DNA from: the human T2T-CHM13v2.0 reference genome, Homo sapiens
Reading direction: 5' to 3' (one strand)
Assembly: GCF_009914755.1 (NCBI RefSeq)
Contig: NC_060928.1
DNA: 64,000 bases
Positions within the stretch are counted from its first letter, which is position 1; each line of letters begins with the position of its first letter. The notes under the pieces are model-generated. The model did no database searches. It saw nothing but the letters and a program-made list of their open reading frames with translations, and was not told the origin of the DNA. The translations under genes and the position numbers were made by a program. Shown piece by piece: positions 14,693-58,305 of this stretch.

Positions 14693-17600
14693 TCAATTCC
14701 CACCTATGAATGAGAACATGTGGTGTTTGGTTTTTTTGTCCTTGCGATAGTTTGCTGAGAATGGTGGTTTCCAGCTTCATCCATGTCCCTACAAAGGACA
14801 TGAACTCATCATTTTTTATGGCTGCATAGTATTCCATGGTGTATATGTGCCACATTTTCTTAATCCAGTCTATCATTGTTGGACATTTGGCTTGGTTCCA
14901 AGTCTTTGCTATTGTGAATAGTGCCGCAATAAACATACGTGTGCATGTGTCTTTATAGCAGCATATTTTGTAATCCTTTGGGTATATACCCAGTAAGGGG
15001 ATGGCTGGGTCAAATGGTATTTCTAGTTCTAGATCCCTGAGGAATCGCCACACTGTCTTCCACAATGGTTGAACTAGTTTACAGTCCCACCAACAGTGTA
15101 GAAGTGTTCCTATTTCTCCACATCCTCTCCAGCACCTGTTGTTTCCTGACTTTTTAATGATCACCATTCTAACTGGTGTGAGATGGTATCTCATTGTGGT
15201 TTTGATTTGCATTTCTCTGATGGCCAGTGATGATGAGCATTTTCTCATGTGTCTTTTGGCTGCATAAATGTCTCCTTTGGAGAAGTGTCTGTTCATATCC
15301 TTTGCCCACTTTTTGATGGGGTTGTTTGTGTTTTTCTTGTAAATTTGTTTCAGTTCATTGTAGATTCTGGATATTAGCTCTTTGTCAGATGAGTAGATTG
15401 CAAAAATTTTCTCCCATTCTGTAGGTTGCCTGTTCACTCTTGATGGTAGTTTCTTTTGCTGTGCAGAAGCCCTTTAGTTTAATGAGGTCCCATTTGTCAA
15501 TTTTGGCTTTTGTTGCCATTGCTTTTGGTGTTTTAGACATGAAGTCCTTGCACATGCCTGTGTCCTGAATGGTATTGCCTAGGTTTTCTTCTAGGGTTTT
15601 TATGGTTTTAGGTCTAAAATTTAAGTGTTTAATCCATCTTGTATTAATTTTTGTATAAGGTGTAAGGAAGGGATCCAGTTTCAGCTGTCTACATATGGCT
15701 AGCCAGTTTTCCCAGCACCATTTATTAAATAGGGAATCCTTTCCCCATTGCTTGTTTTTGTCAGGTTTGTCAAAGATCAGATAGTTGTAGATATGCGGCA
15801 TTATTTCTGAGTGCTCTGTTCTGTTCCATTGGTCTATATCTGTTTTGGTACCAGTACCATGCTGTTTTGGTTACTGTAGCCTTGTAGTATAGTTTGAAGT
15901 CAGGTAGCGTGATGCCTCCAGCTTTATTCTTTTGGCTTAGGATTGACTTGGCAATGTGGGCTCTTTTTTGGTTCCATATGAACTCTAAAGTAGTTTTTTC
16001 CAATTCTGTGAAGAAAGTCATTGGTAGCTTGATGGCGATGGCATTAAATCTATAAATTACCTTGGGAGGTATGGCCATTTTCACAATATTGATTCTTCCT
16101 ACCCATGAGCATGGAATGTTCTTCCATTTGTTTGTATCCTCTTTTGTTTCATTGAGCAGTAGTTTGTAGTTCTCCTTGAAGAGGTCCTTTTCATCCCTTG
16201 TAAGTTGGGTTCCTAGGTATTTTATTCTCTTTGAAGCAATTGTGAATGAGAGTTCACTCATGATTTGGCTCTCTGTTTGTCTGTTATTGGTGTATAAAAG
16301 AATGCTTGTGATTTTTGCACATTGATTTTGTATCCTGAGACTTTGCTGAAGTTGCTTATCAGCTTAAGGAGATTTTGGGCTGAGACGATGGGGTTTTCTA
16401 GATATACAATCATGTCATCTGCAAACAGCAACAATTTGACTTCCTCTTTTCCTATTTGAGTACCTTTTATTTCCTTGTCCTGCCTGATTGCCCTGGCCAG
16501 AACTTCCAACACTATGTTAAATAGGAGTGGTGAGGGAGGGCATCCCTGTCTCGTGCCAGTTTTCAAAGGGAATGCTTCCAGTTTTTGCCCATTCAGTATG
16601 ATATTGGCTGTGGGTTTGTCATAGATAGCTCTTATTATTTTGAGATACGTCCCATCAATACCTAATCTATTGAGAGTTTTTAGCATGAAGGGTTGTTGAA
16701 TTTTGTCAGAGGCCTTTTCTGCATCTATTGAGATAATCATGTGATTTTTGTCTTTGGTTCTGTTTATATGCTGGATTACATTTATTGATTTGCTTATGTT
16801 GAACCAGCCTTGCATCCCAGGGATGAAGCCCACTTGTTCATGGTGGATAAGCTTTTTGATGTGCTGCTGGATTCGGTTTGCCAGTATTTTATTGAGGATT
16901 TTTCCACCAATGTTCATCAAGGATATTGGTCTAAAATTCTCTTTTTTTGTTGTGTCTCTGTCAGGCTTTGATATCAGGATGATGCTGACCTCATAAAATG
17001 AGTTAGGGAGGATTCCCTCTTTTTCTATTGATTGGAATAGTTTCAGAACGAATGGTACCAGCTCCTCCTTGTACCTCTGGTAGAATTTGGCTGTGAATCC
17101 ATCTGGTCCTGGACTTTTTTTGGTTGGTAAGCTATTAATTATTGCCTCAATTTCAGAGCCTGTTATAGGTCTATTCAGAGATTCAACTTCTTCCTGGTTT
17201 AGTCTTGGGAGGGTGTATGTGTCCAGGAATTTATCCATCTATTCTGGATTTTCTAGTTTATTTGCGTAGAGGTGTTTATGGTATTCTCTGATGGTAGTTT
17301 GTATTTCTGTGGGATCAGTGGTGATATCCCCTTTATCAATTTTTATTGCATCTATTTGACTCTTCTCTCTTTTCTTCTTTATTAGTCTTGCTAGTGGTCT
17401 ATCAATTTTGATCTTTTCAAAAAACTAGCTCCTGGATTCATTGATGTTTTGAAGGGTTTTTTGTGTCTCTATTTCCTTCAGTTCTGCTCTGATCTTAGTT
17501 ATTTCTTGCCTTCTGCTAGCTTTTGAATGTGTTTCTTTTGCTTCTCTAGTTCTTTTAATTGTGATGTTAGGGTGTCAACTTTAGATCTTTCCTGCTTTCT

Positions 17601-55345: not shown

Positions 55346-58305
55346 ATGACAGGATCAAATTCACACAGAACAATATTAACTTTAAATGTAAATGGACTAA
55401 ATGCTCCAATTAAAAGACACAGACTGGCAAATTGGATAAAGAGTCAAGATCCATCAGTGTGCTGTATTCAGGAAACCCATCTCACATGCAGAGACACACA
55501 TAGGCTCAAAATAAAAGGATGGAGGAAGATCTACCAAGCAAATGGAAAACAAAAAAAGGCAGGGGTTGCAATCCTAGTCTCTGATAAAACAGACTTTAAA
55601 CCAACAAAGATCAAAAGAGACAAAGAAGGCCAAGACAAAATGGTAAAGGGATCAATTCAACAAGAAGAGCTAACTATCCTAAATATATATGCACCCAATA
55701 CAGGAGCACCCAGATTCATAAAGCAAGTCCTGAGTGACCTACAAAGAGACTTAGACTTCTACACAATAATAATGGGAGACTTTAACACCCCACTGTCAAC
55801 ATTAGACAGATCAATGAGACAGAAAGTTAACAAGGATACCCAGGAATTAAACTCAACTCTGCACCAAGTGGACCTAATAGACATCTACAGAACTCTCCAC
55901 CCTAAATCAACAGAATATACATTTTTTTTCAGCACCACACCACACCTATTCCAAAATTGACCTCACAGTTGGAAGTAAAGCTCTCCTCAGCAAATGTAAA
56001 AGAACAGAAATTATAACAAACTGTCTCTCAGACCACAGTGCAATCAAACTAGAACTCAGGATTAAGAAAGTCACTCAAAACCACTCAACTACATGGCAAC
56101 TGAACAACCTGCTCCTGAATGACTACTGGGTACATAACGAAATGAAGGCAGAAATAAAGATGTTCTTTGAAACCAATGAGAACAAAGACACAACATACCA
56201 GAATCTCTGGGACACATTCAAAGCAGTGTGTAGAGGGAAATTTATAGCACTAAATGCCCACAAGAGAAAGCAGGAAAGATCCAAAATTGACACCCTAACA
56301 TCACAATTAAAAGAACTAGAAAAGCAAGAGCAAACACATTCAAAAGCTAGCAGAAGGCAAGAAATAACTAAAATCAGAGCAGAACTGAAGGAAATAGAGA
56401 CACAAAAAACCCTTCAAAAAATTAATGAATCCAGGAGCTGGTTTTTTGAAAGGATCAACAAAATTGATAGGCCGCTAGCAAGACTAATAAAGAAGAAAAG
56501 AGAGAAGAATCAAATAGATGTAATAAAAAATGATAAAGGGGATATCACCACAGATCCCACAGAAATACAAACTAACATCACAGAATACTACAAACACCTC
56601 TATGCAAATAAACTAGAAAATCTAGAAGAAATGGATAAATTCCTCAAAACATACGCCCTCCCAAGACTAAACCAGGAAGAAGTTGAATCTCTGAATAGAC
56701 CAATAACAGGCTCTGAAATTGTGGCAATAATCAATAGCTTACCAACCAAAAAGAGTCCAGGACCAGATGGATTCACAGCCGAATTCTACCAGAGGTACAA
56801 GGAGGAACTGGTACCATTCCTTCTGAAACTATTCCAATCAATAGAAAAAAAGGAAATCCTCCCTATCTCATTTGATGAGGCCAGCATCATCCTGTTATCA
56901 AAGCCGGGAAGAGACACAACCAAAAAAGAGAATTTTAGACCAATATCCTTGATGAACATTGAGGCAAAAATCCTCAATAAAATACTGGCAAACCGGATCC
57001 AGCAGCACATCAAAAAGCTTATCCACCATGATCAAGTGGGCTTCATCCCTGGGATGCAAGGCTGGTTCAATATACGCAAATCAATAAATGTAATCCAGCA
57101 TGTAAACAGAACCAAAGACAAAAATCACATGATTATCTCAATAGATGCAGAAAAGGCCTTTGCCAAAATTCAACAACCCTTCATGCTAAAAACTCTCAAT
57201 AAATTAGGTATTGATGGGACGTATCTCAAAATAATAAGAGCTATCTATGACAAACCCACAGCCAATATCATACTGAATGGGCAAAAACTGGAAGCATTCC
57301 CTTTGCAAACTGGCACAAGACAGGGATGCCCTCTCTCACCACTCCTATTCAACATAGTGTTGGAAGTTCTGGCCAGGGCAATCAGGCAGGAGAAGGAAAT
57401 AAAGGGTATTCAATTAGGAAAAGAAGAAGTCTAATTGTCCCTGTTTGCAGATGACATGATTGCATATCTAGAAAACCCCATTGTCTCAACCCAAAATCTC
57501 CTTAAGCTGATAAGCAACTTCAGCAAAGTCTCAGGATACAAAATCAATGTACAAAAATCACAAGCATTCTTATACACCAATAACAGACAAACAGAGAGCC
57601 AAATCATGAGTGAACTCTCATTCACAATTGCTTCAAAGAGAATAAAATACCTAGGAACCCAACTTACAAGGGACGTGAAGGACCTCTTCAAGGAGAACTA
57701 CAAACCACTGCTCAATGAAATAAAAGAGGATACAAACAAATGGAAGAACATTCCATGCTCATGGGTAGGAAGAATCAATATTGTGAAAATGGCCATACTG
57801 CCCAAGGTAATTTATAGATTCAATGCCATCCCTATCAAGCTACCAATGACTTTCTTCACAGAATTGGAAAAAACTACTTTAAAGTTCATATGGAACCAAA
57901 AAAGAGCCCGCATTGCCAAGTCAATCCTAAGCCAAAAGAACAAAGCTGGAGGCATCACGTTACCTGACTTCAAACTACACTACAAGGCTACAGTAACCAA
58001 AACAGCATGGTACTGGTACCAAAACAGAGATATAGATCAATGGAACAGAACAGAGCCCTCAGAAATAACGCCGCATATCTACAACTATCTGACCTTTGAC
58101 AAACCTGAGAAAAACAAGCAATGGGGAAAGGAATCCCTATTTAATAAATGGTGCTGGGGAAACTGGCTAGCCGTATGTAGAAAGCTGAAACTGGATCCCT
58201 TCCTTATATCTTATACAAAAATTAATTCAAGATGGATTAAAGACTTAAATGTTAGACCTAAAACCATAAAAACCCTAGAAGAAAACCTAGGCAATACCAT
58301 TCAGG
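55346..58305 (+). pseudogene. L1 ORF2p (EN + RT), disrupted and C-terminally truncated
   Basis: Fragments 55346..55960, 56142..57434, 57435..58352 (FADDM); the last runs into LTR sequence. Confidence 0.95.

What the first reader, a model, noticed from the sequence alone, without database searches (positions are those of the whole stretch)
16200..57670. Two inverted L1PA copies ~34 kb apart share patches of non-consensus variants: gene conversion and a possible inversion substrate
Seen: the minus L1 (14481-20617) and plus L1 (54235-58305) differ at many sites (ORF1 ELKEEVRTHG vs ELQEEIQTKG; PDK vs PEK) yet are identical over short tracts. These are gacctcacagt (IDLTVG; 17896-17906 and 55959-55969, ~115 bp identical), gaactctcatt..ggaacccaac (ELSF..LGTQL; ~16200-16290 and ~57570-57670), aaaatcacatg (~16743 and ~57125), and ~140 bp at the ORF1 3' end (~18600-18737 and ~55126-55266). 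From recalled consensus these sites are normally IDHIVG, ELPF, LGIQL and aaaaccacatg, and the changes are not CpG decay. Inference: repeated non-allelic gene conversion between inverted repeats, the geometry that drives NAHR inversions. The left L1 keeps matching TSDs and a continuous host L1M, so this haplotype has the ancestral orientation.
Basis: partly seen in the sequence, partly recalled or inferred. Interest (0 to 1): 0.8.

Follow-up and report, generated by a model that had tools for sequence, protein, structure and literature searches.

The report
Gene conversion between inverted L1 copies
Two old, broken L1 retrotransposons lying head-to-head 34 kb apart in a gene desert on human chromosome 4 share a handful of very rare mutations, most likely because short stretches were copied from one to the other; this is a known process, and nothing shows that the DNA between them has ever been inverted.

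Summary
The sequence features are real. Two independently inserted, inverted L1PA copies (A, minus, 14446-20619; B, plus, 54235-58305) are 94.3% identical over 3.97 kb.

The two lines of evidence fare differently:
- **Tract lengths are not unusual.** 22% of 389 unlinked L1 pairs with similar divergence have a longest tract of at least 140 bp. The 140-bp ORF1 tract is also 100% identical in an unlinked chr1 copy.
- **The shared rare alleles are unusual.** A and B share five non-CpG alleles found in 0 of 40-68 other copies. That ranks first of 861 pairs (expected 0.47). One 17-mer occurs only twice in the 3.1-Gb genome, in A and in B.

A and B belong to different rungs of the L1 ladder (AU test rejects sisterhood, p = 1.6e-7). 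The shared alleles therefore conflict with descent.

Best reading: several short or patchy non-allelic gene-conversion tracts (about 0.75).

Neither copy is a chimera, so no crossover or inversion shows in this haplotype. At 94.3% identity the pair falls below published thresholds for LINE-LINE NAHR. This is a new example of a known process, of modest interest.

The parts
14446..20619 (-). L1 copy A. Full-length older-grade L1PA with a roughly 45-nt A-rich tail (read as T-rich on the + strand) and broken ORFs.
   Evidence: Tree: A sits in the oldest 12-row clade with an end branch of 0.034.
14432..14445 (.). Left target-site duplication of A (CAATACACATTATT).
   Evidence: 12 of 14 match to 20620-20633, abutting the A-rich tail.
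20620..20633 (.). Right target-site duplication of A (CAATATACATTCTT).
   Evidence: It abuts the L1 5' end seen.
54235..58305 (+). L1 copy B, younger-grade L1PA. The 5' end is intact. It lacks the equivalent of A 19530-20515 (most of the 5'UTR and the ORF1 start). It is cut off at 58305, about 1.1 kb short of an L1 3' end. No TSD was found.
   Evidence: Tree: B is basal in the 25-row clade with an end branch of 0.022.
55926..56041 (+). Candidate conversion tract 1, B side (116 bp identical). It holds 55963 T, 55966 C (IDLTVG) and 55982 T.
   Evidence: - The 17-mer ATTGACCTCACAGTTGG occurs twice in the genome, in A and B only.
- 55963 T is found in 0 of 67 other copies.
- No other copy is closer than 2 mismatches to this tract.
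17824..17939 (-). Candidate conversion tract 1, A side. A carries the younger-grade state at 17883 (= B 55982) plus the two rare alleles. The tract ends at the diagnostic site 17940 (= B 55925).
   Evidence: Haplotype over 55925/55963/55966/55982/56042: A CTCTT, B TTCTA; typical older grade CATAA; younger grade TATTA or TACTA.
57570..57673 (+). Candidate conversion tract 2, B side (104-105 bp identical). It holds 57618 T (ELSF) and 57658 C (LGTQL).
   Evidence: - Both alleles are found in 0 of 40 other copies.
- The joint haplotype occurs in 4 copies genome-wide, A and B included.
- Single alleles: 290 and 90 exact 17-mers, against 12,461 for the majority ELPF form.
16194..16298 (-). Candidate conversion tract 2, A side.
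57103..57159 (+). Candidate conversion tract 3, B side (57 bp identical). It holds 57125 T (aaaatcacatg); the A side is 16710-16766.
   Evidence: 57125 T is found in 0 of 67 other copies. There are 372 exact 17-mers genome-wide.
56898..56898 (+). Isolated shared rare allele T (A side 16971). A-B differences lie 3 bp upstream and 8 bp downstream. This is either an old or patchy tract, or the one coincidence that chance would allow.
   Evidence: 56898 T is found in 0 of 68 other copies. The k-mer has 137 genome-wide matches. Context is shown.
55127..55266 (+). ORF1 3'-end identical tract (140 bp; A side 18598-18737). It is NOT evidence of conversion.
   Evidence: Unlinked copy L057 is identical over all 140 bp. 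The minor alleles here occur in 4-11 of 40 copies across all clades.
20634..54234 (.). The 33.6-kb spacer between the inverted copies, which is the segment that an A x B crossover would invert.
   Evidence: Geometry. No chimeric L1 was found.
34865..35629 (-). Third L1 piece C: a 5'-truncated 3' end with a perfect 15-bp TSD (AGAACTTAACTTTTT at 34850-34864 and 35630-35644). It was used as a negative control.
   Evidence: A and C share 0 pair-exclusive alleles among 14 copies.

Best explanation
A and B are two independent L1 insertions of different age that happen to lie in inverted orientation 33.6 kb apart. After both were in place, short stretches were copied non-reciprocally from one to the other. 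This is non-allelic (ectopic) gene conversion: repair of a break in one copy using the other as template on the same chromatid or a sister. It happened either as several short tracts or as one long heteroduplex repaired in patches.

The transfers carried private mutations of one copy into the other. At least tract 1 (B 55926-56041) and tract 2 (B 57570-57673) are products of this. Tract 3 (around 57125) probably is too. Site 56898 may be, or may be coincidence.

For tract 1 the most economical direction is B to A. For tract 2 there is a weak hint of A to B. No crossover accompanied these events, so the spacer kept its original orientation.

Shown: the allele sharing, its rarity, the conflict with the tree, and the absence of chimeras. 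Inferred: the mechanism, the direction and the number of events.
For: 1. Pair-exclusive alleles. A and B share 5 alleles found in no other row of a 42-copy alignment (B 55963 T, 56898 T, 57125 T, 57618 T, 57658 C). This is the highest of 861 pairs. The distribution is 0:630, 1:189, 2:27, 3:12, 4:2, 5:1, and the expectation from their private loads is 0.47.
2. Larger comparator set. With 28 more copies the counts stay at 0 of 67, 0 of 68 and 0 of 67 for the first three sites. None of the five is at a CpG.
3. Genome-wide exact k-mer counts in the 3.1-Gb assembly:
   - ATTGACCTCACAGTTGG: 2 matches, A and B only.
   - 55963 T in any form: 11 copies against 4,350 with the majority base, 0.25%.
   - 57618 T: 290 against 12,461, 2.3%.
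   - 57658 C: 90. 56898 T: 137. 57125 T: 372.
   - Joint 57618 T + 57658 C: 4 copies.
4. Not sister copies. The tree puts four branches with SH-aLRT support of 97-99% between them. Forcing A+B together costs 146 lnL units, p-AU 1.55e-7. 47 grade-diagnostic sites separate them along the whole length.
5. Tract 1 detail. A differs from its own grade at three sites within 20 bp (55963, 55966, 55982). At all three it equals B, and 55982 is the younger-grade state. The tract stops at diagnostic site 55925.
6. Independent insertions. Homology stops at the L1 ends. A has its own TSDs. B has a different internal deletion and a 3' truncation.
7. Negative control. A and the third L1 piece C (20 kb away, direct orientation) share 0 exclusive alleles.
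Against: - The identical tracts are not longer than in unlinked pairs.
- The shared-rare sites lie in longer-than-average tracts only weakly (P=0.07).
- The 140-bp ORF1 tract is matched exactly by an unlinked copy.
- Four of the five alleles are individually present in 90-372 other copies, so each arises recurrently. About 0.5 to 1 coincidence is expected by chance, and 56898 has A-B differences 3 and 8 bp away.
- 55963 T also occurs in a small older-grade group of copies. Four of them were sampled and share 6-8 further alleles with each other. A shares one of those (56219 T). The T in A could therefore be older than assumed, which leaves the direction of transfer open.
- Two older-grade copies elsewhere (C9, C12) carry the ELSF+LGTQL pair.
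- 55982 T occurs in 2 of 11 older-grade copies.
- The panels are best-hit samples (40 scored of 16,767 and 22,369 candidates), not random or complete ones.
- k-mer counts see only copies that match the rest of the word exactly.
- No orthologous ape locus or second human haplotype was available, so no pre-conversion state was observed.
Confidence: 0.75

Rival explanations
1. Coincidence. The same rare substitutions arose independently in A and B by recurrent mutation at ordinary sites.
For: Each allele except the tract-1 double variant is carried by 90-372 other copies, so the mutations do recur. Two unlinked pairs in the panel reach 4 exclusive alleles. Tract lengths are ordinary.
Against: - 5 are observed against 0.47 expected, the top of 861 pairs.
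- All five are non-CpG, and one is a transversion present in only 0.25% of copies.
- The double variant is unique to these two copies, which lie 38 kb apart in 3.1 Gb.
- In tract 1, A would need three parallel changes within 20 bp.
Confidence: 0.12
2. Common descent. Both copies were made by a rare, long-lived source lineage that carried these alleles, and they landed near each other by chance.
For: Small groups of copies carry CTC at the IDH codon (9 further copies). The ELSF+LGTQL pair occurs in 2 further copies.
Against: - The AU test rejects A+B as sisters.
- B shares the younger-grade state at 43 of 47 diagnostic sites and A the older state at 42 of 47.
- The C9 and C12 copies lack 56898 T and 57125 T.
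- The CTCATA copies lack 55966 C and 55982 T, and A and B lack most of that group's alleles.
- No other copy carries the 17-mer.
- The proximity of A and B would be left unexplained.
Confidence: 0.06
3. Assembly or polishing artefact. Reads from one L1 were used to correct the other in the T2T assembly.
For: None came from the calls. It is a generic risk for repeats.
Against: The copies differ at 220 places in 3.97 kb. The shared alleles are isolated bases amid retained differences, which does not look like the signature of mis-polishing. This could not be tested here.
Confidence: 0.03
4. Same outcome by a different route. Replication template switching between the inverted copies (fork stalling or break-induced copying) made the patches, rather than break repair by recombination.
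For: The inverted orientation on one chromosome fits intramolecular switching. The patches are short and discontinuous.
Against: 33.6 kb is far for a fork-level switch. No indels or junction scars were seen at the tract edges. Sequence alone cannot separate this from gene conversion.
Confidence: 0.04

Closest known systems
Non-allelic gene conversion between dispersed retrotransposon copies. It is best documented for Alu: review PMC6598467 (passages read); PMC8230782 (search listing and abstract only).
   Same: Nearby paralogous copies of independent origin exchange short stretches. The result is shared variants that conflict with subfamily phylogeny. The rate depends on distance and identity.
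   Different: Here the partners are two about 4-kb L1 segments of different subfamily grade at 94.3% identity, 34-41 kb apart and inverted. The review passage cites elevated Alu conversion within <10 kb. From memory, not from any call: L1 cases have been described mainly as young L1 replacing a pre-existing L1.
LINE-LINE non-allelic homologous recombination substrates (Startek et al. 2015, PMC4344489; abstract and passages read)
   Same: Two long LINE-1 copies lie on one chromosome within 10 Mb. The inverted orientation is classed there as an inversion substrate.
   Different: That study's main criteria are >4 kb and >95% identity, with enrichment at breakpoints only from about 96%. This pair is 3.97 kb at 94.3%, with a longest perfect match of 140 bp. 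No crossover product is seen.
L1-mediated inversions in human genomes (Balachandran et al. 2022, PMC9675761; passages and supplementary table 4 read)
   Same: All 8 L1-mediated inversions there lie between oppositely oriented L1s, mostly L1PA.
   Different: Those events span 2.4-13 kb, and the L1 pairs have a median similarity of 97.1%. None of the 15 listed TE-mediated inversions is at this locus; the only chr4 event is at 187.95 Mb in GRCh38. That survey covers three genomes only.
Arm-to-arm gene conversion in large palindromes and inverted segmental duplications (recalled; no call)
   Same: Intrachromosomal exchange between inverted repeats without inversion of the spacer.
   Different: Those arms are >99% identical and are homogenised along their whole length. 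Here only a few short patches in two 5.7%-diverged repeats are affected.

Membership tests
Interlocus (non-allelic) gene conversion | The two sequences are paralogous, non-allelic and of independent origin, not a duplication of one locus. | tested here: met
   Homology ends at the L1 borders. A has its own TSDs. B has a different internal deletion and truncation. The AU test rejects sisterhood.
Interlocus (non-allelic) gene conversion | Shared derived variants conflict with the phylogeny and exceed chance. | tested here: met
   5 pair-exclusive non-CpG alleles, rank 1 of 861 pairs, expected 0.47. The alleles are rare or unique genome-wide.
Interlocus (non-allelic) gene conversion | The variants lie in contiguous tracts bounded by unconverted markers, and the tracts are longer than chance. 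| tested here: inconclusive
   Tracts 1 and 2 are bounded by grade-diagnostic sites 55925 and 57551. Tract lengths are ordinary compared with 389 unlinked pairs. The association of rare sites with long tracts gives P=0.07.
Interlocus (non-allelic) gene conversion | A pre-conversion state is seen in an outgroup or another haplotype, with the donor unchanged (non-reciprocity). | not testable with these tools
   Only this one human assembly is held. No ape orthologue or pangenome was available.
NAHR inversion substrate or product | Inverted repeats on the same chromosome arm. | tested here: met
NAHR inversion substrate or product | Identity at or above the level at which LINE pairs are enriched at breakpoints (about 96%; PMC4344489). 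| tested here: not met
   94.3% over 3,979 aligned bases, with a longest perfect match of 140 bp.
NAHR inversion substrate or product | Chimeric repeats left by a crossover, seen as a block switch of diagnostic sites. | tested here: not met
   A is older-grade at 42 of 47 sites and B younger-grade at 43 of 47. The exceptions are scattered.
NAHR inversion substrate or product | The spacer is seen in both orientations in populations or between species. | not testable with these tools
   Not among the 15 TE-mediated inversions of PMC9675761. The Strand-seq inversion paper was not held under its DOI.
The tree shows only that A is of an older grade than B, and that both are older than the youngest sampled copies (end branches 0.034, 0.022 and about 0.005).

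The most novel reading that the evidence does not exclude
Old L1 copies with only about 94% identity, tens of kilobases apart, may still exchange sequence in both directions. That is below the identity thought necessary for LINE-LINE recombination. If so, co-localisation of genome-rare k-mers would be a simple whole-genome assay for it. Supporting hints: the tract-1 17-mer is unique to this pair, and the 90 carriers of the rare LGTQL allele include 6 pairs within 100 kb against 0.26 expected. At least one of those pairs is a plain duplication. If the tracts here are recent or polymorphic, the same pair might also flip the 33.6-kb spacer in some human or ape haplotypes.
Probability: 0.12. Interest if true: 0.5.

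Novelty: new member of a known kind. Interest (0 to 1): 0.3.

Why it matters
- It gives a cleanly documented example of sequence exchange between two L1 insertions of different age. It comes with a genome-wide control that is rarely available: a word found only in the two partners in a complete assembly.
- It shows that conversion can blur subfamily-diagnostic and private sites used to date or classify L1 copies.
- It shows that 'identical tracts' alone are a poor criterion, whereas shared rare alleles are a good one.
- The locus is a gene desert with no annotated gene in the window, so no functional consequence is expected.

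Tried and rejected
1. **Split-L1 idea.** I considered that the L1 3' fragment at 34865-35629 was the missing 3' end of B, separated by a 22.7-kb inversion. Rejected: the fragment has its own perfect 15-bp TSD.
2. **Tract lengths as evidence.** The uniform null looked mildly significant, but the empirical null from 389 unlinked pairs removed it.
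3. **ORF1 140-bp tract.** Rejected as evidence.
4. **Shared-rare sites and long tracts.** Only weakly associated, P=0.07.
5. **Direction of transfer from diagnostic sites.** It is suggestive for tract 1, but weakened by the CTCATA group.
6. **A versus fragment C.** No sharing. The test is small: 791 columns and 14 copies.
7. **Nearby pairs elsewhere as a general phenomenon.**
   - Carrying 55963 T: the C2 31.79/31.84 Mb pair is 94.4% identical and the C5 43.19/44.07 Mb pair 91.9%. The four copies form one small group by descent, so the pairs are not independent origins.
   - Carrying the LGTQL allele: the C2 18.0 Mb pair is a 100% identical duplication, the C10 pair is 92.8% identical, and my C12 stretch overlapped its partner by only 85 bp.
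8. **Published inversion lists.** None of the 15 events in PMC9675761 is at this locus. The Cell inversion paper was not held.
10. **Searches of the window's own genome.** All 12 were used, so denominators for 56898, 57125 and 57658 were not measured.

Full report
**Anatomy**

A self-comparison of the window finds one long inverted match, 15564-19529 against 58305-54332. It is 94.3% identical over 3,979 aligned bases, with 209 mismatches and 8 gap openings. There is also a 102-nt match of the two L1 5' ends, 20516-20617 against 54236-54337 at 86%.

Copy A (minus strand) is full length.
- Its 5' end is at about 20619.
- Its 3' end runs through a roughly 45-nt A-rich tail to about 14446.
- It is flanked by CAATACACATTATT (14432-14445) and CAATATACATTCTT (20620-20633), a 12-of-14 target-site duplication.

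Copy B (plus strand) starts with an intact L1 5' end at 54235.
- It lacks the equivalent of A 19530-20515.
- It stops abruptly at 58305, next to unrelated sequence and about 1.1 kb short of an L1 3' end.
- No TSD was found for it.

Both copies have broken reading frames. Homology does not extend beyond the L1s, so these are separate insertions and not an inverted duplication.

A third L1 piece (34865-35629, minus strand, 93.9% identical to A's 3' end) briefly looked like the missing end of B moved by an inversion. It has its own perfect 15-bp TSD and is therefore a separate 5'-truncated insertion.

**The observation**

- The ORF1 peptides ELKEEVRTHG (A) and ELQEEIQTKG (B), and IDLTVG, ELSF and LGTQL in both copies, are at the stated coordinates.
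- The identical tracts are 140, 116, 105 and 57 bp.
- The cited changes are not at CpG dinucleotides.

**Are the identical tracts more than chance?**

The core has 220 difference events in 3,969 columns. A uniform placement gives P=0.067 for a longest tract of 140 and P=0.009 for the sum of the four longest.

That null ignores rate variation along L1. I therefore used real data: 40 other copies fetched from the same genome. Twenty were the best full-length matches to B and twenty were matches to A. The search scored 39 of 16,767 candidates for B and 40 of 22,369 for A. These gave 389 unlinked pairs with a similar number of differences. Among them:
- 22% have a longest tract of at least 140;
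- 15% reach the top-3 sum of A-B;
- 8.7% reach the top-4 sum.

So the tracts as such are ordinary. In addition, the 140-bp ORF1 tract is matched without a single mismatch by L057, a copy on another chromosome. Its minor alleles occur in 4-11 of 40 copies in all clades. That tract carries no information about exchange.

**The shared rare alleles**

Across the whole 3.97 kb there are 23 columns where A equals B but differs from the panel majority.
- At five of them the shared base is in 0 of 40 others: B 55963 T, 56898 T, 57125 T, 57618 T and 57658 C.
- Three more are in 4 of 40: 55202, 55966, and 57782, which is a CpG.

I counted, for every one of the 861 pairs in the 42-row alignment, the alleles carried by exactly those two rows. 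The distribution is 0:630, 1:189, 2:27, 3:12, 4:2, 5:1. The single 5 is A-B. Scaling by private-mutation loads predicts 0.47 for this pair. Adding 28 further copies that cover three of the sites leaves the counts at 0 of 67, 0 of 68 and 0 of 67.

**Genome-wide counts**

Exact-word counts in the complete 3.1-Gb assembly give the frequencies directly.

| Word or allele | Matches |
|---|---|
| ATTGACCTCACAGTTGG (tract 1 double variant) | 2, in A and B only |
| 55963 T with either neighbour | 11, against 4,350 with the majority base (0.25%) |
| 57618 T | 290, against 12,461 (2.3%) |
| 57658 C | 90 |
| 56898 T | 137 |
| 57125 T | 372 |
| 57618 T + 57658 C together | 4: A, B and one copy each on contigs 9 and 12 |

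Those two other copies are of the older grade and lack 56898 T and 57125 T.

The alleles are therefore rare recurrent mutations, not markers of a subfamily.

These counts see only copies that match the rest of the word. Denominators were measured for two of the sites only.

**Are A and B simply close relatives?**

No. The maximum-likelihood tree of the 42 copies is the usual L1 ladder.
- A sits in the oldest 12-row clade and B sits at the base of a 25-row clade.
- Four branches with SH-aLRT support of 97-99% lie between them.
- The end branches are 0.034 for A and 0.022 for B. The youngest sampled copies have about 0.005.

Forcing A and B together lowers the log-likelihood by 146 (p-AU 1.55e-7).

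Forty-seven sites separate the older grade from B's grade. A has the older state at 42 and B the younger state at 43, along the whole length and with no block switch. The five exclusive alleles are therefore homoplasies on any reasonable tree.

**What the tracts look like**

Tract 1 (B 55926-56041). Over sites 55925/55963/55966/55982/56042:
- A reads CTCTT and B reads TTCTA;
- the older grade typically reads CATAA;
- the younger grade reads TATTA (37 of 68 copies) or TACTA (6 of 68).

B is thus one private transversion away from a known younger-grade variant. A differs from its own grade at three sites within 20 bp, equals B at all three, and one of them is the younger-grade state. The tract ends exactly at diagnostic site 55925. 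One B-to-A transfer explains this.

The caveat is that 55963 T also marks a small older-grade group. Four of its nine other carriers were sampled. They share 6-8 further alleles with each other, and A shares one of those, 56219 T. In addition, 55982 T occurs in 2 of 11 older-grade copies. The direction is therefore not settled.

Tract 2 (B 57570-57673) holds both ELSF and LGTQL. On its left it is bounded by an indel and by diagnostic site 57551. The only other carriers of the pair are older-grade copies, a weak hint of A-to-B transfer.

Tract 3 is the 57 bp around 57125.

Site 56898 has A-B differences 3 bp and 8 bp away. It may be an old or patchy event, or the one coincidence that chance would allow.

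Diagnostic differences persist at 56921, 57071 and 57551. One continuous tract across 56898-57658 is therefore excluded. Either several short events occurred, or a long heteroduplex was repaired in patches.

**Control**

A and the third L1 piece C lie 20 kb apart in direct orientation. Among 14 copies aligned over 791 columns they share no pair-exclusive allele. Proximity alone does not create the signal, although this test is small.

**Inversion**

A crossover between A and B would leave two chimeric L1s and would move A's right-hand TSD. Neither is seen.

As a substrate the pair is weak.
- Startek et al. (PMC4344489, abstract and passages read) find LINE pairs enriched at breakpoints only from about 96% identity.
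- Balachandran et al. (PMC9675761, passages and supplementary table 4 read) report 8 L1-mediated inversions of 2.4-13 kb between L1s with a median similarity of 97.1%. None of their 15 TE-mediated inversions is at this locus.

The large Strand-seq inversion study was not held under its DOI. Whether the spacer is inverted in any human therefore remains untested.

**Comparison with what is known**

Non-allelic gene conversion between dispersed repeats is established. It depends on distance and identity, and for Alu it is elevated within <10 kb according to the review PMC6598467 (passages read). This case is another instance, here between two L1s of different age at 94% identity and 34-41 kb. My literature searches turned up no genome-wide study of L1-L1 conversion. 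They were few, word-based and not exhaustive, so I make no claim of absence.

**Verdict**

- The features are real.
- The tract-length argument fails.
- The rare-allele argument holds and is strengthened by whole-genome counts.
- Ectopic gene conversion is the best explanation (about 0.75). Coincidence (about 0.12) and common descent (about 0.06) are the main rivals.
- The inversion idea is geometry only.

Interest is modest: this is a new member of a known kind.

Noticed in passing
window 34850-35644: A 5'-truncated L1 3' end (34865-35629, minus strand) has an (AAT)n-type tail and a perfect 15-bp target-site duplication, AGAACTTAACTTTTT. It is 93.9% identical to A's 3' end.
   Followed up: yes
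window 54235-58400: B has an intact 5' terminus but an internal loss of about 986 bp (most of the 5'UTR and the start of ORF1). It ends abruptly at 58305 against an unrelated repeat. The missing roughly 1.1-kb 3' end is nowhere else in the window. This points to later deletion or rearrangement, which was not resolved.
   Followed up: partly
G000 C2:31788648(-)/31843090(+) (L087, L088) and C5:43187389(+)/44065230(-) (L089, L090): Of the 9 other copies in the genome with the rare 55963-type T, four form two nearby inverted pairs. One pair is 54 kb apart and 94.4% identical; the other is 878 kb apart and 91.9% identical. L087 and L088 share 5 further pair-exclusive alleles. All four belong to one small older-grade group, so either old duplication or conversion could explain this.
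   Followed up: partly
genome-wide list of the LGTQL allele; L091-L095: The 90 carriers include 6 pairs within 100 kb, against 0.26 expected if positions were uniform. The C2 18.0 Mb pair is a 100% identical duplication. The C10 101.3 Mb pair is 92.8% identical. Several of the others lie in regions that may be segmentally duplicated, which was not checked.
   Followed up: partly
window 55152-55247 (A 18617-18712): A three-to-four-site minor haplotype (C..T..C..T) at the ORF1 3' end recurs in copies from different rungs of the L1 ladder (L057, L062, L058, A, B). It looks like a long-lived alternative variant or a set of hypervariable sites.
   Followed up: partly
window 14446-14490: A's tail is not a plain poly(A). 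It is about 45 nt of A-rich sequence with interspersed bases before the TSD. This could be a degenerate tail or a very short 3' transduction.
   Followed up: no
window 20287-21486: The RefSeq 'enhancer' feature given by the hub overlaps the 5'UTR end of A and its right flank. Nothing was done with it.
   Followed up: no
one search hit table (25 of 40 hits, among them L060-L063, L065-L067, L069, L070): The genome search reported many matches to A ending at query position about 2444. When the same loci were fetched with more flank, they aligned to A over its full length. The truncated hits were a feature of the search's scoring, not of the copies.
   Followed up: yes
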